This document shows, one piece after another, positions 8,022-22,395 of a stretch of 64,000 nucleotides of DNA. The position numbers and the translations under genes were made by a program. Below the pieces are notes generated by a model that worked only from the letters and a program-made list of their open reading frames with translations, was not told the DNA's origin and made no database searches. The stretch comes from Escherichia coli. GTDB taxonomy: Bacteria; Pseudomonadota; Gammaproteobacteria; Enterobacterales; Enterobacteriaceae. The stretch lies in assembly GCF_048403405.1 (NCBI RefSeq), contig NZ_CP183129.1; one strand, given 5' to 3'. Each line of letters starts with the position of its first letter. The first letter of the stretch is position 1.

Positions 8022-10121
8022 ATGGGTTTTTCATCAGCCCGAAATTTGGGAAGGGACATATCGGCAGGATTTTCCCCACCACGTCGCATGCCGATTTCGG
8101 AGGCTGTTAAAAAATTCATGCGTGTTCCCAAGGGGGCTGGTAACTCGGTGCCATGGGATCCTGAACTGACACCCTACATCATTGAGCCCATGAACTGCCT
8201 GGCATCGCGTGAATACGATGCGGTGATTTTTGTTGGTCCTGCGCGAACAGGGAAGACCATTGGTCTGATCGATGGATGGATTGTCTATACCATCGTTTGC
8301 GATCCTTCGGACATGCTCGTTGTGCAGATGACCGAAGATAAGGCCCGCGAGCATTCTAAAAAGCGCCTCGACAGAACGTTCAGAAGCAGTGCGGCGGTAA
8401 AGAAAAGAATGAGTCCACGTCGTAACGACAATAATGTCCATGATAAGACGTTCAGGGATGGCTCGTTCCTTAAAATTGGTTGGCCCTCGGTCAACATTAT
8501 GTCGTCGTCGGATTACCGGTTTGTCGCCTTAACCGATTACGACCGTTTTCCGGAGAATATCGACAGCGAGGGTGATGGTTTCTCCCTGGCCTCAAAACGT
8601 ACCACCACATTTATGTCCGCCGGGATGACTCTGGTGGAGAGCTCGCCGGGACGTGACATCTGCGACAGCAAATGGCGACGTAAGTCGCCTCATGAAGCGC
8701 CACCGACGACTGGTATTCTTTCCCTTTACAATCGTGGTGACCGCCGCCGCTGGTACTGGCCATGTCCGCACTGCGGTGAATATTTTCAGCCAGCTATGGA
8801 TGCCATGACCGGCTACCGTAATGAACCGGATCCCTTTAAAGCCAGTGAGGCGGCGTATCTACTTTGCCCGCACTGCAGCGGCATTATCACTGCGGAGAAA
8901 AAGCGTGAGCTCAATAGTGCAGGAGTCTGGTTGCGTGAAGGTCAGGTCATTGATCGTAACGGCAACGTTTCCGGTGAACCGCGCCGCTCCCGTATCGCCA
9001 GTTTCTGGATGGAAGGGCCAGCTGCTGCGTATCAGACCTGGGCGCAACTGGTTTACAAATTACTGACTGCAGAACAGGAGTATGAAGCGACAGGAAGCGA
9101 AGAAACACTCAGGGCGGTTATCAACACCGACTGGGGATTGCCTTATCTTCCTCGTGCCAGCATGGAGCAACGAAAAAGTGAACTGCTTGAGCAGCGGGCA
9201 GAGCCAGTTCCTTCCTGCAGTGTGCCGGATGGCGTTAATTTCCTTGTGGCGACAGTGGATGTGCAGGCGGGACGTCATCGCCGTTTTGTGGTTCAGGTAA
9301 CTGGCTATGGCAGTCGTGGCGAACGCTGGATTATTGATCGTTACAATATCACGCAGTCATTGCGCAGTGACTGCGACGGGGAGAGCCAGCGAATTGATCC
9401 GGCCAGCTATCCGGAAGACTGGGATGTCCTGCTGACGGATGTTTTTCATAAAAGCTGGCCGCTGGCCTCCGATCCTTCTCAACAAATGCGACTGATGGCA
9501 ATGGCGGTGGACTCCGGCGGTGAAGACGGGGTCACTGATAATGCCTATAAATTCTGGCGTCGTTGCCGTCGTGATGGCCTTGGTAAACGTATTTACCTGT
9601 TTAAGGGCGACAGCATCCGGCGCGCAAAACTGATCACCCGTACATTCCCTGATAACACCGGACGAACGGGCCGACGGGCGCAGGCCGCAGGTGATGTGCC
9701 GCTCTGGCTTCTTCAGACGGATGCACTGAAAGACCGGGTGAATAACGCGTTATGGCGTGACTCGCCAGGTCCCGGCTATGTGCATTTCCCTGACTGGCTG
9801 GGGAGCTGGTTTTACGACGAACTGACGTATGAAGAGCGGAGCAGTGACGGGAAATGGAGTAAGCCGGGTCGCGGTGCCAACGAAGCTTTTGACCTGATGG
9901 TGTATGCCGAGGCTCTGGTCATTCTGCATGGATACGAAAAGATCCGCTGGCCGGATGCACCGGAGTGGGCGAGCCGGGAAACCTGGCTGGAGTGTGTCCC
10001 GGACAGTACCGAACCGTCACCCTCACCGGAACCGGTATCCACGCCTGTTAAAAAACAAAAACGGAAGAAAACAGTAACTGACGATGTTAACCCCTGGCTG
10101 ACTTCCGGAGGATGGTTATGA
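8022..10121 (+). CDS. terminase large subunit (lambda GpA family)
   Basis: 699 aa; Walker A motif GPARTGKT; C-terminal nuclease-like region; gene order. Confidence 0.9.
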   Translation: MGFSSARNLGRDISAGFSPPRRMPISEAVKKFMRVPKGAGNSVPWDPELTPYIIEPMNCLASREYDAVIFVGPARTGKTIGLIDGWIVYTIVCDPSDMLVVQMTEDKAREHSKKRLDRTFRSSAAVKKRMSPRRNDNNVHDKTFRDGSFLKIGWPSVNIMSSSDYRFVALTDYDRFPENIDSEGDGFSLASKRTTTFMSAGMTLVESSPGRDICDSKWRRKSPHEAPPTTGILSLYNRGDRRRWYWPCPHCGEYFQPAMDAMTGYRNEPDPFKASEAAYLLCPHCSGIITAEKKRELNSAGVWLREGQVIDRNGNVSGEPRRSRIASFWMEGPAAAYQTWAQLVYKLLTAEQEYEATGSEETLRAVINTDWGLPYLPRASMEQRKSELLEQRAEPVPSCSVPDGVNFLVATVDVQAGRHRRFVVQVTGYGSRGERWIIDRYNITQSLRSDCDGESQRIDPASYPEDWDVLLTDVFHKSWPLASDPSQQMRLMAMAVDSGGEDGVTDNAYKFWRRCRRDGLGKRIYLFKGDSIRRAKLITRTFPDNTGRTGRRAQAAGDVPLWLLQTDALKDRVNNALWRDSPGPGYVHFPDWLGSWFYDELTYEERSSDGKWSKPGRGANEAFDLMVYAEALVILHGYEKIRWPDAPEWASRETWLECVPDSTEPSPSPEPVSTPVKKQKRKKTVTDDVNPWLTSGGWL

Positions 10122-10330: not shown

Positions 10331-11838
10331 TGGCAATTCTTGATGATGTGATTGGCGTTTTTTCACCAGGATGGAAAGCGGCAAGGCTGCGTTCCCGGGC
10401 GGTGATCCAGGCTTATGAGGCCGTAAAAACGACGCGGACACACAAAGCCCGGCGGGAAAACCGAACTGCCGACCAGTTAAGCCTCTACGGGGCCGTGTCG
10501 TTACGTGAGCAGGCCCGTTACCTTGATAACAACCACGATCTGGTCATTGGTGTATTTGACAAGCTGGAAGAACGGGTGGTGGGGAAAAACGGGATTATTG
10601 TCGAGCCACATCCGGTATTACGCAATGGGGCCATTGCCCGTGATCTGGCAGCGGAGATACGCACCCGATGGAGTGAATGGTCTGTCAGTCCGGAAGTTAC
10701 CGGGCAGTTTACCCGTCCGATGCTGGAACGTCTGATGCTGCGTACCTGGCTGCGCGATGGTGAGGTGTTTGCCCAGATGGTTTCCGGGCGCATAAACAGC
10801 CTGACGCCTTCTGCCGGTGTTCATTTCTGGCTGGAGGCACTCGAGCCAGACTTTATTCCCATGACCAGTGATGAGAGCAACAGGCTGAATCAGGGCGTGT
10901 TTGTTGATGACTGGGGGCGTCCCGAAAAATATCTGGTGTATAAAAGTCGTCCTGTATCCGGACGGCAGATGGAAACCAAAGAAGTGGATGCAGAGCGAAT
11001 GCTGCATCTTAAATTTGTTCGCCGTCTGCACCAGATGCGCGGGACGTCTTTATTGTCCGGTGTGCTGATCCGCCTCAGTGCCCTGAAAGAATATGAAGAT
11101 TCTGAGCTGACTGCAGCAAGGATCGCTGCTGCTCTGGGGATGTACATCCGCAAAGGCGACGGACAGAGCTATGAAACGGATGGTAATGACAGCAAGGAGA
11201 ATGAACGCGAGCTTACCATTCAGCCAGGCATTATTTACGACGATCTGAAACCCGGCGAAGAAATCGGAATGGTGAAGTCGGATCGCCCCAATCCTAACCT
11301 TGAAACTTTTCGTAATGGTCAGTTGCGTGCCGTGGCGGCGGGCAGTCGTCTGAGTTTTTCCAGTACAGCGCGCAACTATAACGGCACTTACAGCGCCCAG
11401 CGTCAGGAGCTGGTTGAATCCACTGATGGCTACCTGATCCTGCAGGACTGGTTTATTGGTGCCGTCACCCGCCCGATGTATCGTGCCTGGCTGAAACAGG
11501 CTGTGGCATCCGGTGTTATCAGGCTACCCCGCGATCTTGACCGTTCTTCACTGTATACCGCGGTGTATTCCGGACCGGTGATGCCGTGGATTGACCCTGT
11601 TAAGGAGGCTGAGGCCTGGAAAATTCAGATTCGTGGTGGAGCGGCGACAGAATCAGACTGGGTACGTGCAGGTGGTCGTAATCCGGATGATGTCAAACGT
11701 CGGCGCAAGGCAGAAATTGATGAAAACCGCAAGCTGGATCTGGTATTTGATACCGATCCGGCCAGTGATAAAGGAGGCAGCAGTGCCGCAACGAAACGAC
11801 AGGAGCCGCAGCACACCGACGACCAGTCCGAAGAATAA
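10330..11838 (+). CDS. portal protein (lambda gpB-like)
   Basis: 502 aa from MAILDD...; size and position; start chosen at first Met after the gpW-like stop. Confidence 0.85.
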   Translation: MAILDDVIGVFSPGWKAARLRSRAVIQAYEAVKTTRTHKARRENRTADQLSLYGAVSLREQARYLDNNHDLVIGVFDKLEERVVGKNGIIVEPHPVLRNGAIARDLAAEIRTRWSEWSVSPEVTGQFTRPMLERLMLRTWLRDGEVFAQMVSGRINSLTPSAGVHFWLEALEPDFIPMTSDESNRLNQGVFVDDWGRPEKYLVYKSRPVSGRQMETKEVDAERMLHLKFVRRLHQMRGTSLLSGVLIRLSALKEYEDSELTAARIAAALGMYIRKGDGQSYETDGNDSKENERELTIQPGIIYDDLKPGEEIGMVKSDRPNPNLETFRNGQLRAVAAGSRLSFSSTARNYNGTYSAQRQELVESTDGYLILQDWFIGAVTRPMYRAWLKQAVASGVIRLPRDLDRSSLYTAVYSGPVMPWIDPVKEAEAWKIQIRGGAATESDWVRAGGRNPDDVKRRRKAEIDENRKLDLVFDTDPASDKGGSSAATKRQEPQHTDDQSEE

Positions 11839-13810
11839 TTCCTGGTTCAGGATGCAGGCTGGTCACCAGAGTGACGCGGATATTTATATTTATGACGAGA
11901 TTGGTTTCTGGGGTGTTACAGCGAAGCAGTTTATCAGTGATCTGAATGCACTGGGCGATATCACCCACATTAATCTCCATATCAATTCACCGGGTGGCGA
12001 TGTCTTTGAAGGCATCGCCATTTTTAATGCGCTGAAAACACATGGTGCGTCCATTACCGTTTATGTCGACGGTGTGGCGGCGTCAATGGCGTCGGTCATT
12101 GCGATGGTGGGAAACCCGGTCATTATGCCGGAAAACACCTTCATGATGATTCATAAACCATTTGGCTTTACGGGCGGTGATGCGGAGGACATGCGCACCT
12201 ATGCCGACCTGCTCGATAAGGTTGAGGCGGTTCTGTTACCCGCTTATGCACAGAAAACCGGGAAAACCACCGATGAAATTGCTGCCATGCTGGCGGATGA
12301 GACCTGGATGTCCGGTGCCGAATGTCTGGCACATGGATTTGCTGATCAGGTGACGCCAGCCGTTAAGGCAATGGCATGTATTCAGTCAAAACGTACAGAG
12401 GAATTTAAAAAGATGCCGGAATCCATTCGAAACATGATTACTCCGCCACGCAACAGTGCTCCACGCGTACAGGATGATGAACCTGCAGCCTCCCGGACGC
12501 CAGTGCAGGCAGCAGCACCCGTGGTGGATGAAAACAGTATCCGTGCGCAGGTACTGGCAGAGCAAAAAGCGCGTGTAAACGGTATTAATGATCTGTTTGC
12601 CATGTTTGGCGGGCGTTATCAGACGCTGCAGGCTCAGTGTCTTGCCGATCCTGAGTGTTCGCTGGAGCAGGCCCGCGAAAAGCTGTTGAACGAGATGGGG
12701 CGCGAGTCCACGCCATCCAATAAAAATACACCGGCTCATATTTATGCTGGTAACGGTAATTTTGTGGGGGACGGGATCCGCCAGGCGCTGATGGCGCGTG
12801 CCGGATTTGAAAAAACCGAACGTGATAATGTCTACAACGGGATGACCCTGCGTGAATATGCCCGTATGTCACTGACTGAACGGGGTATTGGGGTTTCCGG
12901 TTATAACCCGATGCAGATGGTCGGTGCGGCGTTCACCCACAGTACGTCTGACTTCGGTAATATTCTGCTGGATGTTGCGAACAAAGCCATTCTGCAGGGC
13001 TGGGAAGATGCTCCTGAAACCTATGAACAATGGACGCGGAAAGGTCAGTTGTCTGATTTTAAAATTGCCCATCGTGTGGGTATGGGGGGCTTCAGTGCTC
13101 TGCGTCAGGTGCGTGAAGGGGCGGAATATAAATACGTCACCACCGGAGATAAACAGGCCACTATTGCACTGGCGACCTATGGCGAGCTGTTCAGTATCAC
13201 CCGTCAGGCCATTATCAATGATGATCTGAATATGCTGACCGATGTCCCGATGAAACTGGGCCGTGCGGCGAAATCCACTATTGCCGATCTGGTTTATGCC
13301 ATTCTGACGTCTAACCCGAAAATCTCCACAGATAATGTAAGTCTGTTCGATAAAGCGAAACATGCAAACGTACTGGAGAGCGCTGCAATGGACGTGGCAT
13401 CGCTGGATAAAGCCCGCCAGTTGATGCGCGTTCAGAAAGAGGGGGAGCGTCATCTGAATATTCGTCCTGCGTTCGTACTGGTACCGACGGCGATGGAGTC
13501 TGTTGCTAACCAGGTCATTCGCTCCTCAAGTGTCAAGGGGGCTGACATTAACGCCGGTATTATTAACCCGGTGAAAGATTTTGCGACCGTTATTGCAGAG
13601 CCTCGTCTTGATGATAACAGCCAGACCACCTTCTACCTGGCTGCGTCAAAAGGCTCCGATACGATTGAAGTGGCTTATCTCAACGGTGTGGATACGCCAT
13701 ATATTGATCAGATGGAGGGCTTCAGTGTGGATGGCGTGACAACGAAAGTGCGTATTGACGCCGGTGTCGCGCCAGTTGATCACCGCGGTCTGGTGAAATG
13801 TACGGCGTAA
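11783..13810 (+). CDS. prohead protease (ClpP/S49-like) fused in one frame to the major capsid protein
   Basis: GTG start after AAGGAGG; N-terminal ClpP-like region (IYIYDEIGFWG...HINSPGGDVFEG...); C-terminal ~330 aa capsid-like; no separate capsid gene downstream. Confidence 0.8.
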   Translation: MPQRNDRSRSTPTTSPKNNSWFRMQAGHQSDADIYIYDEIGFWGVTAKQFISDLNALGDITHINLHINSPGGDVFEGIAIFNALKTHGASITVYVDGVAASMASVIAMVGNPVIMPENTFMMIHKPFGFTGGDAEDMRTYADLLDKVEAVLLPAYAQKTGKTTDEIAAMLADETWMSGAECLAHGFADQVTPAVKAMACIQSKRTEEFKKMPESIRNMITPPRNSAPRVQDDEPAASRTPVQAAAPVVDENSIRAQVLAEQKARVNGINDLFAMFGGRYQTLQAQCLADPECSLEQAREKLLNEMGRESTPSNKNTPAHIYAGNGNFVGDGIRQALMARAGFEKTERDNVYNGMTLREYARMSLTERGIGVSGYNPMQMVGAAFTHSTSDFGNILLDVANKAILQGWEDAPETYEQWTRKGQLSDFKIAHRVGMGGFSALRQVREGAEYKYVTTGDKQATIALATYGELFSITRQAIINDDLNMLTDVPMKLGRAAKSTIADLVYAILTSNPKISTDNVSLFDKAKHANVLESAAMDVASLDKARQLMRVQKEGERHLNIRPAFVLVPTAMESVANQVIRSSSVKGADINAGIINPVKDFATVIAEPRLDDNSQTTFYLAASKGSDTIEVAYLNGVDTPYIDQMEGFSVDGVTTKVRIDAGVAPVDHRGLVKCTA

Positions 13811-13896: not shown

Positions 13897-14220
13897 ATGG
13901 CAAAGAATTTTGTAGAAGAAGGAAAAACGGTGGCGATTGTTGCCAGTGCAGCCATCAGCAGCGGAGAGCTGGTGCAGGTGGGTGATGTTTTTGCGGTGGC
14001 GCTGACCGATATTCCACAGGGTGAAACAGGCGACGGCATGACCGAAGGTGTGTTTATGCTGCCTAAGCTGAAAACGGATGACATGAAAACGGGTAAGAAG
14101 GTTTATCTGAAGTCCGGAAAAGTTCAGCTGACTAACAGCGGCTCTGATCCGCTGGTCGGGGTTGTCTGGGCAGATGCCGGAACCAGTGCAGAAGAAGTGC
14201 CGGTAAAACTCAATGTCTGA
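13897..14220 (+). CDS. small head-associated protein (possible decoration/completion protein)
   Basis: 107 aa from MAKNFVEEGK...; position right after the capsid gene. Confidence 0.5.
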   Translation: MAKNFVEEGKTVAIVASAAISSGELVQVGDVFAVALTDIPQGETGDGMTEGVFMLPKLKTDDMKTGKKVYLKSGKVQLTNSGSDPLVGVVWADAGTSAEEVPVKLNV

Positions 14221-14488
14221 TCCCTTTTCCCGGCTGGCAGCGCGTATGGATGCGATCACGGTCAGAAAGATGGGAAAGACAGCCTCGATTAATGATGTCG
14301 ATATGACTGTGATCCCGGGAGAAACACTGGCAGAGCTGAATGCTCTGTCCGGACCTGCGGTCTCTCTGGTGGTGTTTTCTTCGGGATACCGCCCACGGCG
14401 CGGGGATCGCGTTGTTTATGACGGACAACAATGGACGGTCACACGGCATGAACGCTTTAACGGTAAGCCAATGATCTTTATTGAGTAA
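14213..14488 (+). CDS. head-tail connector/head completion protein
   Basis: 91 aa; position between head and tail modules. Confidence 0.5.
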   Translation: MSDPFSRLAARMDAITVRKMGKTASINDVDMTVIPGETLAELNALSGPAVSLVVFSSGYRPRRGDRVVYDGQQWTVTRHERFNGKPMIFIE

Positions 14489-15498: not shown

Positions 15499-16242
15499 AT
15501 GACCACACCAAATCCACTGGCAAAGACGAAAGGTGCGGGGACGACGTTCTGGATGTATACCGGCAACGGCGATGCGTTTGCGAACCCTTTGTCGGACACT
15601 GACTGGCTGCGTCTTGCGATGGTGAAGGATCTGCAACCTGGCGAAATGACCGCTGATGCAGAAGATGACACTTATCTCGATGATGAAGATGCAGACTGGA
15701 AAACGACAACCCAGGGGCAGAAATCCGTTGGTGATACTTCGGCGACGCTGGCCTGGCGTCCGGGTGACAGCGGGCAGAAAAAACTGGTTCAGTTGTTCGA
15801 CTCCGGTGAAGTCTGCGCGTTTCGTATCAAATATCCCAACGGCACTGTTGATGTTTTCCGTGGCTGGCTGAGCTCACTGGGTAAAACCATTGCCTCAAAA
15901 GACGTGATGACCCGCACTGTGAAAATCAGCGGTGTGGGGCGTCCGTATCTGGCAGAGGAAGGCACTGAAACCGTGAGCGTTACCGGGCTGACAGTATCAC
16001 CGGCGTCTGCCAGTGTAAAAGTGGGAGCAACCACCACGCTGACCTTTACAGTAAAACCTGACGGAGCCAGTGACAAAGCGATCAGTGTGCATTCGTCAGA
16101 TCCACAGACTGCCACGGTTACCCTGAACGGACTTGTGGCCACGGTAAAAGGCGTGAAGCAGGGCAGTGTCAGCATTGTGGGCATGACCGCTGACGGGAAT
16201 TTTGTGGCTGTGACTGCGGTGACTGTCAGCGCAGCAGGTTAA
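15499..16242 (+). CDS. major tail protein (gpV-like) with C-terminal Ig-like domain
   Basis: 247 aa after AAGGAGG; C-terminal Big_2-like repeat (VTGLTVSPASASVKVGATTTLTFTVKP...). Confidence 0.8.
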   Translation: MTTPNPLAKTKGAGTTFWMYTGNGDAFANPLSDTDWLRLAMVKDLQPGEMTADAEDDTYLDDEDADWKTTTQGQKSVGDTSATLAWRPGDSGQKKLVQLFDSGEVCAFRIKYPNGTVDVFRGWLSSLGKTIASKDVMTRTVKISGVGRPYLAEEGTETVSVTGLTVSPASASVKVGATTTLTFTVKPDGASDKAISVHSSDPQTATVTLNGLVATVKGVKQGSVSIVGMTADGNFVAVTAVTVSAAG

Positions 16243-16299
16243 CAGGACGATACTCATCATTTGCCCCGGTTATGCGGGGCTTTTTTGCAGGTGGAGAAC

Positions 16300-16689
16300 A
16301 TGATGTTTCTGAAACAGGACACGTTTAATTATGAAAAACAGTCCGTGGTGCTCAGTGAGCTGTCCGGGCTGCAGAGAATTGAATATCTGACGTTTGTTCA
16401 GCAGCGAACGGCAAAGTTTGATGCCGTGGAGGGAGAACTGCCGGAGGCTGAACGACAGATTGCTTTTCTGCGGATGGGGATGGATATCAATGCCTGGCTG
16501 GTTTCCCGCTCACTGTGGAATGCGGATCAGTCTAAGGATGTAGAGACGCTTTGCGCATCCGTTATTACAACATGGTCGTATGATGCCCTGGGTGCGGGGG
16601 CGGAGATGGTTCTGTCGCTGAGCGGTATGGGGGCCATTGATAATGCCGTGGATGATGAGCATGAGGCGCTGACGCCGGAAAAGTCCTGA
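16300..16689 (+). CDS. tail assembly chaperone gpG
   Basis: MFLKQDTF...SELSGLQRIEYL... parallels lambda gpG (MFLKTESF...SELSALQRIEHL). Confidence 0.75.
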   Translation: MMFLKQDTFNYEKQSVVLSELSGLQRIEYLTFVQQRTAKFDAVEGELPEAERQIAFLRMGMDINAWLVSRSLWNADQSKDVETLCASVITTWSYDALGAGAEMVLSLSGMGAIDNAVDDEHEALTPEKS

Positions 16690-17027
16690 CGCGGGAAATG
16701 CAGTTTGTCATGCGGCTTGCCCGGGAGTTCCGGCGGGCAGACTGGCGGCGGATGCTGTCGGAAATGTCGGCCACTGAGCTTGGTGAGTGGGGCGATTATT
16801 TCCGGATGCAGAGCTTCAGTGATGTGTGGATGGATGCGCAGTTTGCCTCGCTGAAGGCATTGATCGTGAGAATGGTGTCCGGCAGCAGTGATGCTGCGGT
16901 GGCTGATTTCAGCCTTTTACCGGAAGAGAACGGGATACCGGAGCGAACGGACGAAGAACTGATGCATCTTGGGGAAGGTATTTCCGGAGGTGTGCGTTAT
17001 GGACCAGATAGCCAACCTGGTCATTGA
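16665..17027 (+). CDS. gpT reading frame, expected to be expressed as a G-T fusion by -1 programmed frameshift
   Basis: Frame -1 relative to G is open from 16665 and overlaps the G 3-prime end; conserved lambdoid G/T arrangement. Confidence 0.6.
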   Translation, partial: GADAGKVLTREMQFVMRLAREFRRADWRRMLSEMSATELGEWGDYFRMQSFSDVWMDAQFASLKALIVRMVSGSSDAAVADFSLLPEENGIPERTDEELMHLGEGISGGVRYGPDSQPGH

Positions 17028-20000
17028 TTTGGGGATTGATGCGGCAGAGTTTAAAAATGAAATTCCCCGTATCAAAAACCTTCTGAATGGTGCAGCCAGC
17101 GATGCAGAACGGTCTTCTGCCCGTATGCAGCGTTTTATGGAGCGTCAGACTCAGGCCGCCCGGCAGACAACGCAGGCAGCTTCTTCGGCTGCAACAGCCG
17201 CATCCGTCCATGCGCAGACGGTGGAGAAGAACGCACAGGCTCATGAACGCATGGCCCGCGAGGTGGAGAAAACCCGCCAGCGCATGGAGGCACTGAGCCA
17301 GAAAATGCGCGAGGAACAGGCGCAGGCCATCGCTCTGGCGGAGGCTCAGGATAAAGCGGCTGCTGCGTTTTATCGTCAGATTGACAGTGTGAAACAGGCC
17401 AGTGCGGGGCTGCAGGAATTACAGCGTATTCAGCAGCAGATCCGACAGGCCAGAAACAGTGGCGGGATTGGTCAGCAGGATTATCTGGCGCTGATTTCTG
17501 AGGTTACGGCGAAAACCCGTGTTCTTACGCAGGCTGAGGCAGAGGCTACCCGACAGAAAGTGGCGTTTATCCGTCAGCTTAAAGAGCAGGCAACCCGCCA
17601 GAATCTTTCTTCTTCTGAGTTGCTTCGTGCCAGGGCTGCCCAGCTGGGGGTAAGCAGTGCTGCAGAAGTGTATATCCGCAAAATGGAGCGGGCAGGAAAA
17701 GCCACGCATTCGCTGGGTCTGAAAAGTGCAGCGGCCCGCCAGGAGATAGGCGTTCTGATAGGTGAACTGGCCCGCGGCAATTTAGGGGCGCTGAGGGGAT
17801 CCGGGATAACGCTGGCTAACCGTGCCGGATGGATAGACACACTGATGTCACCGAAAGGCATGATGCTGGGCGGGGTTATTGGCGGTATTACCGCGGCCGT
17901 CTATGGTCTGGGTAAAGCCTGGTATGACGGTCAGAAGGAGGGGGAAGAATTTAACCGCCAGCTGTCGCTGACGGGGCATTATGCCGGAGTCACTGCCGGG
18001 CAACTGTGGACGCTCAGTCGTGCTATTTCCGGGAATGGTATCACGCAACATGCTGCAGCCGGTGCGCTGGCTCAGGTGGTGGGGAGTGGTGCATTTCGTG
18101 GAAACGATATCGGTATGGTGGCGAGAGCTGCCGCACAGATGGAGCGATCGGTTGGCCAGTCGGTCAGCGATACCATAAATCAGTTTAAGCGGCTGAAGGA
18201 TGATCCTGTAAATGCCGCGAAGTCTCTGGACAATGAGCTGCATTTTCTTACTGCCACTCAGCTTGAGCAGATACGCGTCCTTGGAGAGCAGGGGCGGTCC
18301 AGTGATGCGGCACGGATAGCCATGTCTGCACTGGCAGAGGAAACCGGTCGGCGTACTGCGGATATTGATAATAACCTCAATGCGCTGGGCAGTACGCTGC
18401 AAACTTTGTCTGACTGGTGGAAGCAGTTCTGGGATGCGGCCATGAATATTGGTCGTGAAGATTCGCTGGATGCGCAGATTGCCACTTTGCAGGAGAAAGT
18501 GTCGCGGGCGAAAAGACTCCCCTGGACGGCATCATCTTCTCAGGTTGAATACGATCAGCAGCGTCTTAACGATCTTCAGGAGAAAAAACGCCAGAAGGAT
18601 TTGCAGGATGCAAAAGAGCAGGCAGAGCGGAATTATCAGGAGCAACAGAAACGCCGTAATGCTGAAAATGCTGCACTGAACCGGATGAATGAAACGGAAG
18701 CTGCACGACATCAGCGTGAAATTGCGCGTATTAATGCCATGCAGTACGCCGATCAGGCTGTCAGGGATGCGGCGATACAACGTGAAAATGAACGTTACGA
18801 GAAAGCCCTGGCATCCGGTAAGAAAAAAACACGCGAAACCCGTAATGATGAGGCCACCCGGTTATTGCTGCAGTACAGTCAGCAACAGGCACAGGTGGAA
18901 GGACAGATTGCTGCTGCCAGACAGTCAGCAGGCATTGCCACGGAAAGGATGACAGAAGCGCATAAACAGCTCCTGGCTCTGCAGCAGCGCATCAGCGACC
19001 TGGACGGGAAAAAACTGACGGCAGATGAAAAGAGTGTGCTGGCCCGTAAAGATGAACTGATTCAGGCACTGACGCTGCTGGATGTAAAACAGCAGGAGCT
19101 TCAGAAACAGACGGCACTCAACGAGCTGAAGAAAAAAACAATTCAGCTGACCAGTCAACTGGCTGAAGAAGAGCGCGCTCAGCGTCAGCAACATGACCTG
19201 GATATCGCCACGGTGGGTATGGGTGATCAGCAGCGACAGCGATATCAGGTACAACTGAGTCTTCGCCAGAAATACCAGCAACAGCTGGAGCAGTTGAGGC
19301 GGGATAGTGAGCAGAAAGGGACATATAACACGGATGACTACAGAAAGGCCGAGCAGGCGCTGACGGAGAGCCTGAACCGACAACTGAATGAGAATCGCCG
19401 TTACTGGCAACAGCTTGAAGTTGTGCAGGGTAACTGGAAAAACGGAGTCCTGCGTGCATTTCAGGATTTTACCGTGGATGCAGATAATACGGCAGAAACA
19501 GCAGAACAGGTGTTCTCGTCAGCCTTCAGCAACATGGGAAATGGCCTGGCAACTTTTGTCACTACCGGCAAACTCAATTTCAAATCCTTCACCTCTTCTG
19601 TGCTGTCAGATATGGCGAAAATCCTGGCGCAGGCAACCATGATGAAATCGATAAAAGGGATTGGCAGTGTACTGGGATTTGATCTCAGCAGCCTTTCCCT
19701 GAATGCCAATGGGGGGATTTATCAGTCTGCTGATTTGAGTCGTTACAGTGGCACGGTGGTTAACCGTCCGACGTTTTTTGCTTTTGCAAAAGGCGCGGGT
19801 GTGATGGGGGAAGCGGGACCTGAAGCCATTCTGCCATTGCGTCGTGGTGCTGACGGTAAGCTGGGGGTTGTGGCGGATATTGGGGGTTCAGGTATGGCGA
19901 TGTTTTCCCCGCAGTACAACATCGAGATCAATAACGATGGCACGAACGGGCAGATAGGTCCGGCTGCCCTGAAGGCGGTTTATGACCTCGGGAAAAAAGC

Positions 20001-20064
20001 GGCAGCGGACTTTATGCAACAGCAGGCCCGTGATGGTGGTCGGTTAAGTGGAGCATATCGGTAA
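16999..20064 (+). CDS. tail tape-measure protein (gpH-like)
   Basis: about 1020 aa, long coiled-coil Ala/Gln/Arg-rich middle; position. Confidence 0.9.
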   Translation: MDQIANLVIDLGIDAAEFKNEIPRIKNLLNGAASDAERSSARMQRFMERQTQAARQTTQAASSAATAASVHAQTVEKNAQAHERMAREVEKTRQRMEALSQKMREEQAQAIALAEAQDKAAAAFYRQIDSVKQASAGLQELQRIQQQIRQARNSGGIGQQDYLALISEVTAKTRVLTQAEAEATRQKVAFIRQLKEQATRQNLSSSELLRARAAQLGVSSAAEVYIRKMERAGKATHSLGLKSAAARQEIGVLIGELARGNLGALRGSGITLANRAGWIDTLMSPKGMMLGGVIGGITAAVYGLGKAWYDGQKEGEEFNRQLSLTGHYAGVTAGQLWTLSRAISGNGITQHAAAGALAQVVGSGAFRGNDIGMVARAAAQMERSVGQSVSDTINQFKRLKDDPVNAAKSLDNELHFLTATQLEQIRVLGEQGRSSDAARIAMSALAEETGRRTADIDNNLNALGSTLQTLSDWWKQFWDAAMNIGREDSLDAQIATLQEKVSRAKRLPWTASSSQVEYDQQRLNDLQEKKRQKDLQDAKEQAERNYQEQQKRRNAENAALNRMNETEAARHQREIARINAMQYADQAVRDAAIQRENERYEKALASGKKKTRETRNDEATRLLLQYSQQQAQVEGQIAAARQSAGIATERMTEAHKQLLALQQRISDLDGKKLTADEKSVLARKDELIQALTLLDVKQQELQKQTALNELKKKTIQLTSQLAEEERAQRQQHDLDIATVGMGDQQRQRYQVQLSLRQKYQQQLEQLRRDSEQKGTYNTDDYRKAEQALTESLNRQLNENRRYWQQLEVVQGNWKNGVLRAFQDFTVDADNTAETAEQVFSSAFSNMGNGLATFVTTGKLNFKSFTSSVLSDMAKILAQATMMKSIKGIGSVLGFDLSSLSLNANGGIYQSADLSRYSGTVVNRPTFFAFAKGAGVMGEAGPEAILPLRRGADGKLGVVADIGGSGMAMFSPQYNIEINNDGTNGQIGPAALKAVYDLGKKAAADFMQQQARDGGRLSGAYR

Positions 20065-20393
20065 TGGAGACGTTTCACTGGAAAGTGCGCCCGGATATGA
20101 ATGTGGTATCAGAGCCGAAAGTGGTGACAGTGAAGCTGGGCGATGGTTATGAACAGCGTCGTGCGGCGGGACTGAATAACCAGTTGTCGACTTACAGCGT
20201 GACGATACGTGTTCGTAAATGTGAACACCCATCTTTAAAAGCCTTTCTGGAACGGCACGGTGGCGTCCGTGCATTTCAGTGGACGCCACCTTATGACTGG
20301 AAACCGATCAGGGTGGTTTGTCGTAAATGGTCGGCAAGCGTGGGGGCGCTGTGGGTAACCATAACGGCAGATTTTGAACAGGTCGTGGCATAG
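20064..20393 (+). CDS. minor tail protein M
   Basis: 109 aa; size and position as lambda M. Confidence 0.85.
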   Translation: METFHWKVRPDMNVVSEPKVVTVKLGDGYEQRRAAGLNNQLSTYSVTIRVRKCEHPSLKAFLERHGGVRAFQWTPPYDWKPIRVVCRKWSASVGALWVTITADFEQVVA

Positions 20394-20402
20394 GAGGCTC
20401 TG

Positions 20403-21101
20403 ATGCAGGATATTCCACAGGAAACACATCATGAGACGACACGCCTCACTCAGTCAGCCCAGGTGGTGCTCTGGGAAATCGATCTGACAGAGGTCGGTGG
20501 TGAACGTTATTTTTTCTGTAATGAGCAGAACGAAAAAGGTGAGCCGGTTACCTGGCAGGGGCGGCAGTATCAGGCATACCCCATTCAGGGGACGGGATTT
20601 GAACTGAACGGCAAGGGCAGTGCTGCCCGTCCGACACTGACGGTTTCTAACCTGCACGGAATGGTCACCGGGATGGCGGAAGACCTGCAGAGTCTGGTCG
20701 GCGGAACGGTGGTCAGGCGTAAGGTTTACGCCCGTTTTCTGGATGCGGTGAACTTCGTCAACGGAAACAGTGACGCCGATCCGGAGCAGGAGGTGATCAG
20801 CCGCTGGCGCATCGAGCAGTGCAGCGAACTGAGCGCGGTCAGTGCCTCTTTTGTACTGTCCACGCCGACGGAAACGGACGGTGCTGTTTTTCCGGGGCGC
20901 ATCATGCTGGCTAATACCTGCACCTGGACCTATCGCGGTGATGAGTGCGGTTATCACGGTCCGGCGGTCGCGGATGAATATGACCAGCCGACGTCCGATA
21001 TCACGAAGGATAAATGCAGCAAATGCCTGAGTGGTTGTAAGTTTCGCAATAACGTCGGCAACTTTGGCGGCTTCCTTTCCATTAACAAACTTTCGCAGTG
21101 A
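20403..21101 (+). CDS. minor tail protein L
   Basis: 232 aa; C-terminal Cys cluster (CSKCLSGCKFRNN) as in lambda L. Confidence 0.85.
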   Translation: MQDIPQETHHETTRLTQSAQVVLWEIDLTEVGGERYFFCNEQNEKGEPVTWQGRQYQAYPIQGTGFELNGKGSAARPTLTVSNLHGMVTGMAEDLQSLVGGTVVRRKVYARFLDAVNFVNGNSDADPEQEVISRWRIEQCSELSAVSASFVLSTPTETDGAVFPGRIMLANTCTWTYRGDECGYHGPAVADEYDQPTSDITKDKCSKCLSGCKFRNNVGNFGGFLSINKLSQ

Positions 21102-21850
21102 ATCCCATGACAGAGACAGAATCAGCGATTCTGGCGCACGCCCGGCGATGTGCGCCAGCGGAGTCGTGCGGCTTCGTGGTGAGAACACCGGAGGGGGAAA
21201 GATATTTTCCCTGCGTGAATATCTCCGGTGAGCCGGAGGAGTATTTCCGGATGTCGCCGGAGGACTGGCTGCGGGCAGAGATGCAGGGTGAGATTGTGGC
21301 GCTGGTCCACAGCCACCCCGGTGGTATGCCCTGGCTGAGTGAGACCGACCGGCGGCTGCAGGTGCAGAGTGATTTGCCGTGGTGGCTGGTTTGCCGGGGA
21401 GCGATTCACAAGTTCCGCTGTGTGCCACATCTTTCCGGGCGGCGCTTTGAGCACGGGGTGACGGACTGTTACACGCTGTTCCGGGATGCTTACCATCTGG
21501 CGGGGATTGAGATGCCGGATTTTCATCGCGAGGATGACTGGTGGCGTAACGGTCAGAATCTCTATCTGGATAATCTGGAGGCCACAGGGCTGTATCAGGT
21601 GCCGTTGTCAGCGGCGCAGCCGGGCGATGTGCTGCTGTGCTGTTTTGGTTCATCGGTGCCGAATCATGCCGCCATTTACTGTGGTGACAGCGAGCTGCTG
21701 CACCATATTCCTGAACAACTGAGCAAACGAGAGAGGTACACCGACAAATGGCAGCGACGCACACACTCCCTCTGGCGTCACCGGGCATGGCACGCATCTG
21801 CCTTTACGGGGATTTACAACGATTTGGCCGTCGCATCGACCTTCGAGTGA
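21098..21850 (+). CDS. tail assembly protein K (JAB/MPN plus NlpC/P60-like)
   Basis: HSHPGG metal-binding motif; C-terminal Cys/His peptidase-like region; position. Confidence 0.85.
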   Translation: MNPMTETESAILAHARRCAPAESCGFVVRTPEGERYFPCVNISGEPEEYFRMSPEDWLRAEMQGEIVALVHSHPGGMPWLSETDRRLQVQSDLPWWLVCRGAIHKFRCVPHLSGRRFEHGVTDCYTLFRDAYHLAGIEMPDFHREDDWWRNGQNLYLDNLEATGLYQVPLSAAQPGDVLLCCFGSSVPNHAAIYCGDSELLHHIPEQLSKRERYTDKWQRRTHSLWRHRAWHASAFTGIYNDLAVASTFE

Positions 21851-22395
21851 AAACGGGGTCCGAAGCCATCCGGGCGCTGGCCATGCAGATCCCGGCGTTT
21901 CGTCAGAAACTGAGCGACGGCTGGTACCAGGTACGCATTGCCGGGCGTGATGCCGGTGAAACCGAATTGTCTGCCCGTCTTAATGAGCCGCTGGCAAATG
22001 GTGCCGTGATCCACATCGTGCCGCGTCTGGCGGGAGCTAAAAGTGGCGGTGTGTTTCAGGTGGTGCTGGGGGCGGCGCTGATTGCGGTGGCATGGTGGAA
22101 CCCTGTGGGCTGGCTGGGAGCCGCGGCTGTATCGGGTATGTATGCGGCAGGGGCCAGTATGATCCTGGGCGGAGTGGCGCAGATGCTGGCACCGAAAGCC
22201 AGGACGCCCACGGCAGCAAGTACAGATAACGGCAAACAGAACACCTATTTCTCCTCACTGGATAACATGGTTGCCCAGGGCAATGTTCTGCCCGTTCTGT
22301 ACGGTGAAATGCGCGTGGGGTCGCGGGTGGTCTCTCAGGAGATCAGCACGGCAGACGAAGGGGATGGTGGTCAGGTTGTGGTGATTGGTCGCTGA
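21748..22395 (+). CDS. tail assembly protein I
   Basis: MAATHTLPLASPGMARICLYGDLQRFGRRIDLRVKTG... matches recalled lambda gpI; start overlaps K in another frame. Confidence 0.8.
   Translation: MAATHTLPLASPGMARICLYGDLQRFGRRIDLRVKTGSEAIRALAMQIPAFRQKLSDGWYQVRIAGRDAGETELSARLNEPLANGAVIHIVPRLAGAKSGGVFQVVLGAALIAVAWWNPVGWLGAAAVSGMYAAGASMILGGVAQMLAPKARTPTAASTDNGKQNTYFSSLDNMVAQGNVLPVLYGEMRVGSRVVSQEISTADEGDGGQVVVIGR

What the first reader, a model, noticed from the sequence alone, without database searches (positions are those of the whole stretch)
16660..16700. Probable G-T programmed -1 frameshift with a non-canonical slip site
The gpT frame overlaps the gpG 3-prime end in the -1 frame, as expected, but the overlap (gccggaaaagtcctga) lacks the canonical GGGAAAG heptamer of lambda.
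Basis: partly seen in the sequence, partly recalled or inferred. Interest (0 to 1): 0.25.

Follow-up and report, generated by a model that had tools for sequence, protein, structure and literature searches.

The report
Known N15-type G-T frameshift site
This is the ordinary tail-chaperone G-T ribosomal frameshift of a lambda-like E. coli prophage; it uses the heptamer GGAAAAG instead of lambda's GGGAAAG, a variant already annotated in phages N15 and LLS and common among relatives.

Summary
The T reading frame is -1 relative to G. The two frames can only be joined inside a 25-nt overlap (16665-16689), and that overlap has no GGGAAAG.

The only slip-prone sequence in the overlap is G_GAA_AAG (16677-16683). 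It sits at exactly the position of lambda's G_GGA_AAG, one G-to-A change away.

- GGAAAAG is already annotated as the -1 frameshift slippery sequence in phage N15 (NC_001901) and phage LLS (PQ299149).
- It is the site in 13 of 16 diverged G-family clusters I sampled.
- Across those clusters the Lys codon is always AAG, the Glu codon always GAA and the preceding base always G. Codon usage gives chance values of 2e-8, 1e-4 and 7e-5.
- The T-frame protein is conserved from the slip-site Lys onward.
- The ATG at 16698 that PGAP and several phage records use as a T start has no Shine-Dalgarno sequence and is not conserved.
- I found no downstream RNA structure and no selected upstream Shine-Dalgarno-like stimulator.

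This G-T segment is present in 1845 of 5426 complete E. coli genomes.

Verdict: a real, functional, already known kind of site, of low interest. Frameshift efficiency at this weaker heptamer is still unmeasured here.

The parts
15499..16242 (+). Major tail protein gene (lambda V homologue), directly upstream of G; context for the G-T-H module
   Evidence: Pfam PF16461 Phage_TTP_12 (5e-67) plus PF02368 Big_2; annotated as major tail protein in mEp460
16263..16290 (+). Terminator-like GC hairpin plus T-run between V and G
   Evidence: Terminator scan hit GCCCCGGTTATGCGGGGC TTTTTTGCAG; annotated as a rho-independent terminator at the same place in mEp460, Ayreon and N15
16300..16689 (+). Gene G, tail assembly chaperone (129 aa; PGAP starts it at the second ATG, 16303); the product of standard decoding
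   Evidence: Pfam PF06894 Phage_TAC_2, 5.9e-40; SD AGGUGG 5-8 nt before the ATGs, dG -6.5; annotations
16665..16689 (+). G/T overlap: the only stretch where a -1 shift can join the two frames. It is bounded by TGA at 16662-64 in the -1 frame and by the G stop TGA at 16687-89
   Evidence: Frame translation
16677..16683 (+). Slip heptamer G_GAA_AAG. tRNA-Lys re-pairs from AAG (16681-83) to AAA (16680-82). tRNA-Glu re-pairs from GAA (16678-80) to GGA (16677-79) with a G.U at the middle position
   Evidence: Homologous to lambda G_GGA_AAG; invariant in 13 clusters with codon-usage nulls of 2e-8, 1e-4 and 7e-5; the same heptamer is annotated as the slippery sequence in N15 and LLS
16683..17027 (+). 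T-specific part of the fusion (-1 frame, first new codon GTC at 16683-85, stop TGA at 17025-27). The predicted GT product is join(16300..16683,16683..17027), 242 aa
   Evidence: Pfam PF06223 Phage_tail_T, 5e-15; fusion translation; conservation from the slip Lys onward
16698..16700 (+). ATG that PGAP and several phage records use as a stand-alone T start; probably not a real start codon
   Evidence: Best SD pairing -1.1 kcal/mol, against -6.5 to -10.2 for the G, H and V starts; the position is Leu, Ile or His in other clusters; annotations
16999..20064 (+). Tape measure protein gene (lambda H homologue); overlaps the end of T by 29 nt
   Evidence: Pfam PF06791 TMP_2, PF09718 Tape_meas_lam_C, PF24622

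Best explanation
The window carries the tail module of a lambda-like E. coli prophage of the mEp460/cdtI type.

Most ribosomes translating gene G terminate at TGA 16687-89 and make the 129-aa chaperone G.

A minority slip back one nucleotide on G_GAA_AAG (16677-16683). tRNA-Lys moves from AAG to the fully cognate AAA. The P-site tRNA-Glu moves from GAA to GGA, keeping two Watson-Crick pairs and a G.U at the middle position. Decoding then continues with GTC at 16683 in the -1 frame and gives a 242-aa G-T fusion.

By homology with lambda, the G part should bind the tape measure protein H and the T part should recruit the tail tube protein V. The low slip frequency would set the G:GT ratio.

Shown here:
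- the frames;
- the protein families;
- the homology of the site to lambda's;
- nucleotide-level conservation of the heptamer;
- the absence of an independent T start.

Inferred:
- that slippage actually occurs, and how often;
- that both tRNAs slip together;
- the functions of G and GT.
For: - **Families and order.** G is PF06894 and the T frame is PF06223, in the order V-G-T-H.
- **Frame geometry.** T is -1 relative to G, with only a 25-nt joinable overlap and a single A_AAG in it.
- **Homologous position.** At the same position lambda has GCG GGA AAG and Stx2_95 has TCA AAA AAG. phi80, LLS, mEp237, mEp043, N15, Gifsy-2 and the window have NNG GAA AAG.
- **Census.** In 134 loci forming 16 clusters at 80% aa identity, 13 clusters use G_GAA_AAG, 2 use G_GGA_AAG and 1 uses A_AAA_AAG.
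- **Synonymous sites.** Codon-usage nulls: all 13 Lys = AAG, 2e-8; all 13 Glu = GAA, 1e-4; all 13 preceding codons ending in G, 7e-5.
- **T-frame conservation.** The T-frame protein follows K-[VA]-[LVF]-x-x-E-x-x-F-...-L-[AS]-[RH]-E-[FM]-x-R-x-DWR from the slip Lys onward in all clusters.
- **No own start.** ATG 16698 has no SD and is L, I or H elsewhere.
- **Existing annotation.** GGAAAAG is annotated as the -1 slippery sequence in N15 and LLS. Gifsy-2 T is annotated as part of a frameshift hybrid.
- **Literature.** A_AAG is the most shift-prone tetramer in E. coli (PMC4066793). NNA_AAG and G_GA-type sites are recognised intermediates between tetramer and heptamer sites (PMC5009743). GAA-to-GGA re-pairing via G.U is discussed for phage chaperone sites (PMC10885494).
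Against: - No product was observed; everything here is comparative.
- In a reconstituted E. coli system G GAA AAG gave mainly 0-frame product. The authors call it unfavourable because tRNA-Glu would have a second-position mismatch on GGA (PMC6924986).
- A_AAG alone is barely above background without a stimulator (PMC4066793).
- I found no stimulator. Downstream folding z-scores are -0.15 and -0.35. No compensatory pairs appear in the alignment fold. The upstream GAGG is no more SD-like than synonymous resamples.
- Efficiency may therefore be lower than lambda's, or may depend on a feature I did not detect.
- The conservation statistics treat clusters as independent, which overstates significance.
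Confidence: 0.9

Rival explanations
1. T is a separate gene translated from ATG 16698 (possibly by termination-reinitiation after the G stop 8 nt upstream), as annotated by PGAP and several phage records. No frameshift is needed.
For: An in-frame ATG lies 8 nt after the G stop and is kept in the closest clusters (window, L032, L036, L049). PGAP and the mEp460 and cdtI records annotate T this way.
Against: Best SD pairing before the ATG is -1.1 kcal/mol, against -6.5 to -10.2 for real starts. The residue is Leu, Ile or His in Gifsy-2, phi80, lambda and the distant clusters, while the preceding residues K-[VA]-[LVF]-x-x-E are conserved back to the slip site. The slip heptamer is under synonymous-site constraint, which a separate T gene would not need. 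In lambda the T domain acts as part of the GT fusion (PMC5009743).
Confidence: 0.05
2. The frameshift occurs, but as a single-tRNA slip of tRNA-Lys on A_AAG only. The P-site tRNA-Glu does not re-pair, and the 'heptamer' is really a tetramer or hexamer (NNA_AAG) site like IS1222 or B. subtilis cdd.
For: [quoted passage not shown] NNA_AAG sites with no P-site re-pairing (G_CGA_AAG, A_CGA_AAG) are used naturally (PMC5009743).
Against: Heptamer position 1 lies at a four-fold degenerate third base of the Pro, Ala, Leu or Val codons. It is G in all 13 clusters (null 7e-5), and Glu is always GAA rather than GAG (null 1e-4). GAA is needed in any case to supply the A of A_AAG. The invariant G at position 1 is only explained if the -1 codon GGA matters for the P-site tRNA.
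Confidence: 0.25
3. The T frame is reached by transcriptional slippage (loss of one A in the A4 run), or the locus is a decaying prophage whose T frame is not expressed at all.
For: The window is a prophage. A few related loci have truncated T frames (L019, L026, L028, L029).
Against: A run of four A is well below the run lengths I recall being associated with polymerase slippage (my own knowledge, not checked here). The T frame is intact, matches Pfam Phage_tail_T, and is conserved in plaque-forming phages with near-identical sequence, such as mEp460, Ayreon and PhiR55_1.
Confidence: 0.02

Closest known systems
Bacteriophage lambda G / G-T programmed -1 frameshift (Levin, Hendrix and Casjens 1993; Xu, Hendrix and Duda 2004, 2013, 2014, as cited in PMC5009743)
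   Same: Same gene families (PF06894, PF06223) and the same V-G-T-H order. Same -1 direction. The slip site is at the homologous codon, and the same tRNA-Lys AAG-to-AAA re-pairing applies. T-frame residues after the site are conserved.
   Different: The heptamer is G_GAA_AAG instead of G_GGA_AAG, so the P-site tRNA is tRNA-Glu re-pairing with a middle G.U rather than tRNA-Gly re-pairing cognately. The G stop lies 1 codon after the site instead of 5. G is only about 30% identical to lambda G.
Phage N15 genes 14/15 and phage LLS genes 11/12 (also phi80, mEp237, mEp043, Gifsy-2)
   Same: Identical heptamer GGAAAAG at the homologous position. It is explicitly annotated as the -1 frameshift slippery sequence in N15 (NC_001901.1, 10027-10033) and LLS (PQ299149.1, 9222-9228). 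Gifsy-2 shares the whole CCGGAAAAGTCCTGA block.
   Different: N15, phi80 and LLS have GCG or GTG before the site and the stop 5 codons after it. The window's subfamily (mEp460, cdtI, Gifsy-2 and IMG/VR relatives) has CCG before it and the stop 0-1 codons after it.
NNA_AAG / A_AAG -1 frameshift sites of E. coli and IS elements (IS3, IS1222, B. subtilis cdd)
   Same: They depend on tRNA-Lys slipping from AAG to AAA, with an imperfect or absent P-site re-pairing (PMC5009743; PMC4066793).
   Different: Those sites need strong stimulators (a pseudoknot) for appreciable rates. None was detected here. Here the P-site codon can still re-pair with one G.U.
Pea enation mosaic virus G_GAU_UUU_UGG_UAG shift site
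   Same: A G_GA-type heptamer followed by one codon and then a stop, the same layout as G_GAA_AAG_UCC_UGA. In PEMV, changing the stop to a sense codon drastically reduces frameshifting (PMC5009743).
   Different: A eukaryotic plant virus with different ribosomes. Any role of the nearby stop in this phage is untested, and the phi80/N15 group uses the same heptamer with the stop 5 codons away.

Membership tests
Lambda-type G/GT tail assembly chaperone pair | Two overlapping reading frames located between the major tail (tube) gene and the tape measure gene | tested here: met
   V 15499-16242, G 16300-16689, T frame 16665-17027, H 16999-20064
Lambda-type G/GT tail assembly chaperone pair | The upstream ORF belongs to the lambda G family | tested here: met
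   PF06894 Phage_TAC_2, E=5.9e-40, covering residues 2-122 of 129
Lambda-type G/GT tail assembly chaperone pair | The downstream frame encodes a T domain, is -1 relative to G, and has no translation start of its own | tested here: met
   PF06223, E=5e-15. The -1 relation is shown. ATG 16698 has no SD (dG -1.1) and is not conserved.
Lambda-type G/GT tail assembly chaperone pair | A slippery sequence inside the overlap, conserved at the nucleotide level | tested here: met
   G_GAA_AAG at 16677-16683. It is invariant in 13 clusters, with synonymous-site nulls of 2e-8, 1e-4 and 7e-5.
Lambda-type G/GT tail assembly chaperone pair | A G-T fusion protein is made at a low percentage of G and is required for tail assembly | not testable with these tools
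   Needs western blot, mass spectrometry or genetics; no experimental report for this subfamily was found in four literature searches aimed at this site
Canonical X_XXY_YYZ tandem-slippage heptamer | Positions 1-3 are identical, so the P-site tRNA re-pairs with at most a wobble-position change | tested here: not met
   Positions 1-3 are G, G, A. After a -1 slip the P-site tRNA-Glu faces GGA, a middle-position G.U (sequence; discussed in PMC6924986).
Canonical X_XXY_YYZ tandem-slippage heptamer | Positions 4-6 are identical, so the A-site tRNA re-pairs cognately | tested here: met
   A_AAG: AAG to AAA, both read by the single E. coli tRNA-Lys (PMC5009743)
Stimulated bacterial -1 PRF signal (dnaX / IS911 / IS3 type) | A downstream stem-loop or pseudoknot 5-9 nt after the heptamer | tested here: not met
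   MFE z-scores of -0.15 (77 nt) and -0.35 (147 nt). RNAalifold on 6 homologues found 0 compensatory pairs and a covariation term of +2.03. No Rfam match.
Stimulated bacterial -1 PRF signal (dnaX / IS911 / IS3 type) | An upstream Shine-Dalgarno-like element about 10 nt 5' of the heptamer, selected at the nucleotide level | tested here: not met
   GAGG is present 8-10 nt upstream (dG -5.6). It is no stronger than synonymous resamples of the same peptide (P=0.51 for the window; combined P=0.90 for the nine short-tail cluster representatives the script could score). It is absent in the phi80 and lambda groups.

The most novel reading that the evidence does not exclude
[quoted passage not shown] Yet it is the preferred, strongly conserved slip site of a large branch of the lambda G family.

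The invariant G at heptamer position 1 suggests that tandem slippage with a middle-position G.U on tRNA-Glu is functional in vivo.

The conserved stop 0-1 codons downstream (TGA or TAG, 11 clusters) could act as the missing stimulator, as in the PEMV G_GAU_UUU_UGG_UAG site. If so, this would be a distinct, stop-assisted class of phage G-T signal, possibly giving a different G:GT ratio from lambda.
Probability: 0.15. Interest if true: 0.35.

Novelty: already known. Interest (0 to 1): 0.1.

Why it matters
The practical value is mainly for annotation. This G-T segment occurs in 1845 of 5426 complete E. coli genomes. The PGAP-annotated genome inspected and several phage records list T as a free-standing CDS starting at a non-conserved ATG, instead of as a joined G-T product with ribosomal slippage at GGAAAAG.

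There is also a small mechanistic point. The heptamer that biochemists use as a weakly slippery control is the naturally selected site in most sampled members of this chaperone family. Measuring its in vivo efficiency, and the role of position 1 and of the nearby stop codon, would be a cheap and informative experiment.

Tried and rejected
- **Downstream stimulatory RNA structure.** I folded 77 and 147 nt after the heptamer. Stability was no better than shuffles (z -0.15 and -0.35). An alignment fold of six diverged homologues gave no compensatory pairs. Rejected.
- **Upstream SD-like stimulator.** A GAGG 8-10 nt upstream looked promising because it recurs in Gifsy-2 and L032. Synonymous resampling of the acidic C-terminal peptide gives equally good anti-SD pairing (P 0.27-0.93, combined 0.90), and the phi80 and lambda groups lack it. 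Rejected as unsupported.
- **Rfam families in 16200-17100.** Only two chance-level hits, with E about 0.5.
- **Other slip sites in the overlap.** GCG CTG ACG CCG GAA AAG TCC offers no other codon whose tRNA can re-pair at -1.
- **Independent T initiation at ATG 16698 or 16710.** No usable SD and the position is not conserved.
- **Transcriptional slippage.** The A-run is only four bases.
- **Literature.** I looked for an explicit published statement on GGAAAAG in G-T genes and found none in the held library. Xu et al. 2004 is not held. The evidence that the site is known therefore rests on the N15 and LLS GenBank annotations.
- **Stop-codon position.** Whether it is selected for frameshifting could not be separated from selection simply to end G, nor from T-frame coding (V/A-Leu, CTG-A or CTA-G).

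Full report
**What is in the sequence**

The region 15499-22395 of the window is a lambda-like tail module. The ORF list and Pfam scan give these genes:
- a tail tube protein with an Ig-like domain (15499-16242; PF16461 plus PF02368);
- a lambda-G-family tail assembly chaperone (16300-16689; PF06894, E=5.9e-40);
- a frame encoding a Phage_tail_T domain (open 16665-17027; PF06223, E=5e-15);
- a lambda-type tape measure protein (16999-20064).

G ends ... ACG CCG GAA AAG TCC TGA. The T frame is the -1 frame of G. It carries a TGA at 16662-64, so the two frames can only be joined inside 16665-16689.

That stretch has no GGGAAAG. Its only slip-prone element is an in-frame A_AAG within the heptamer G_GAA_AAG (16677-16683).

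In-frame A_AAG is rare in the window's structural genes: 11 in 3476 codons, or 0.025 expected in an 8-codon overlap. This is the only in-frame G_GAA_AAG among them.

**Where the window comes from**

The 800-bp G-T segment is 97.5-99.9% identical to E. coli phages PhiR55_1, mEp460, cdtI, Tritos and Ayreon. It is present at 95% identity or more in nearly all of the 1845 (of 5426) complete E. coli genomes that hold it, almost always on the chromosome.

None of the near-identical phage records inspected (mEp460, Ayreon) annotates a slippage. They list T as a separate CDS: mEp460 starts it at the ATG that corresponds to window 16698, and Ayreon starts it further downstream. The one PGAP-annotated genome inspected also starts T at the ATG-16698 equivalent.

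**Homology of the site**

I collected G-T loci from annotated phages and from IMG/VR and located the end of G and the -1 frame in each.

At the position that aligns with lambda's established slip site GCG GGA AAG:
- Stx2_95 has TCA AAA AAG;
- phi80, LLS, Eeyore, mEp237, mEp043 and N15 have GCG or GTG GAA AAG;
- the window, mEp460, Ayreon, Gifsy-2 and all IMG/VR relatives down to 38% G identity have CCG or CTG GAA AAG.

The window's site is therefore lambda's site with one G-to-A difference.

In 134 loci forming 16 clusters at 80% amino-acid identity, 13 clusters use G_GAA_AAG, 2 use G_GGA_AAG and 1 uses A_AAA_AAG. The sample was chosen by similarity to the window, so these proportions are biased. 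They still show that the heptamer is common.

**Evidence that the heptamer is functional**

Upstream of the shift only the G frame is decoded. GAA/GAG, AAG/AAA and the third base of the preceding Pro, Ala, Leu or Val codon are therefore free synonymous sites.

Neighbouring codons vary between clusters, but these three sites never do. Using the window's own codon usage (GAA 0.49 of Glu, AAG 0.26 of Lys, CCG 0.50 of Pro) gives these chance values:

| Invariant feature across 13 clusters | Chance |
|---|---|
| All Lys codons are AAG | 2e-8 |
| All Glu codons are GAA | 1e-4 |
| All preceding codons end in G | 7e-5 |

The clusters are not fully independent, so these values are optimistic. The direction is clear all the same.

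The T-frame protein is conserved from the slip-site Lys onward in every cluster (K-[VA]-[LVF]-x-x-E-x-x-F-...-LAREF-x-R-x-DWR-x-ML).

The ATG at 16698 aligns with Leu, Ile or His elsewhere. It has essentially no Shine-Dalgarno pairing: -1.1 kcal/mol, against -6.5 for G and -10.2 for H and V. T therefore has no conserved way to be made except as a G-T fusion, join(16300..16683,16683..17027), 242 aa.

**Mechanism**

The A-site tRNA-Lys re-pairs from AAG to cognate AAA. This is the property that makes A_AAG the most shift-prone tetramer in E. coli (PMC4066793; PMC5009743).

The P-site tRNA-Glu (anticodon UUC) would move from GAA to GGA. It would keep positions 1 and 3 and form a G.U at position 2. 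The PRFect authors invoke the same GAA-to-GGA re-pairing for phage chaperone sites and list an XXYYYY ('twofour') motif (PMC10885494). The Atkins review describes G_GA-type and NNA_AAG sites as intermediates between tetramer and heptamer sites (PMC5009743).

The invariant G at heptamer position 1 argues that P-site re-pairing matters. I therefore favour tandem slippage over a pure single-tRNA slip, with moderate confidence.

Against high efficiency:
- Peng et al. used G GAA AAG as their 'less slippery' sequence and saw mainly 0-frame product (PMC6924986).
- A_AAG alone is near background without a stimulator.

**Search for stimulators**

I looked for stimulators and found none.
- Downstream folding is no better than shuffles (z -0.15 and -0.35).
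- The alignment fold has no compensatory pairs.
- Rfam gives nothing.
- An upstream GAGG at 8-10 nt is fully explained by the acidic peptide it encodes (synonymous resampling P=0.51 for the window, combined 0.90 over the nine short-tail cluster representatives the script scored).

One feature remains unexplained. In the 11 'short-tail' clusters the G stop lies 0-1 codons after the heptamer, as TGA or TAG. This layout matches the PEMV site G_GAU_UUU_UGG_UAG, where the stop matters (PMC5009743). I could not separate a role in frameshifting from simple selection to terminate G, and the phi80/N15 group manages with the stop 5 codons away.

**Comparison with what is known, and novelty**

The N15 RefSeq record annotates 10027-10033 as 'slippery sequence for -1 translational frameshift', and the bases there are GGAAAAG. 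The LLS record annotates a joined chaperone CDS and a 'minus-one programmed translational frameshift site GGAAAAG'. Gifsy-2 T, which shares the entire CCGGAAAAGTCCTGA block, is annotated as part of a frameshift hybrid.

The finding is therefore a correct recognition of an already known variant of the conserved G-T frameshift. It meets every testable membership criterion of the lambda G/GT system. It fails only the strict X_XXY_YYZ definition at positions 1-3.

**Verdict**

The site is real and almost certainly functional, and it is already known. Interest is low (0.1).

The remaining value is in annotation, since T is mis-called as a separate gene in the records inspected. There is also a small open mechanistic question about how a nominally weak heptamer delivers the required G:GT ratio.

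Noticed in passing
window 14272-14278 (ORF 14213-14488): A canonical lambda-type heptamer G_GGA_AAG lies in frame in the 91-aa head-tail gene (ATG GGA AAG ACA). A -1 slip there would hit a stop after 5 codons. It is probably an incidental site giving a truncated product, not a programmed one.
   Followed up: partly
window 16263-16290: A strong terminator-like hairpin (GCCCCGGTTATGCGGGGC plus a T-run) lies between the tail tube gene V and G. It is annotated as a rho-independent terminator at the same place in mEp460, Ayreon and N15. It may lower G/T/H transcription relative to V.
   Followed up: partly
window 16698-17027; NZ_CP018957.1 (L062), NC_019716.1 (L001), MF807953.1 (L002): The PGAP-annotated genome inspected and the mEp460 record annotate T as a free-standing CDS starting at the non-conserved, SD-less ATG 16698. 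Ayreon starts it even later. This is probably a systematic mis-annotation affecting many of the 1845 E. coli genomes that carry the segment.
   Followed up: partly
loci L099-L142 (IMG/VR), compared with window 16677-16689: In G homologues down to 38% identity the stop follows the heptamer by 0 or 1 codon (GGAAAAG CCC TAG; GGAAAAG TAG). The stop switches between TGA and TAG but keeps its position.
   Followed up: partly
L019, L026, L028, L029, L051/L098 (IMG/VR): Some related loci have T frames cut to 37 or 62 codons, or a G gene that ends early with a long -1 extension (204-230 aa). These are probably degraded prophages or rearrangements.
   Followed up: no
window 11591-13810: The long ORF upstream combines a ClpP-like prohead protease region with a capsid-like C-terminal part (739 aa as listed). 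The corresponding mEp460 gene is annotated as a head maturation protease / scaffold with a CLP_protease domain. I did not examine it.
   Followed up: no
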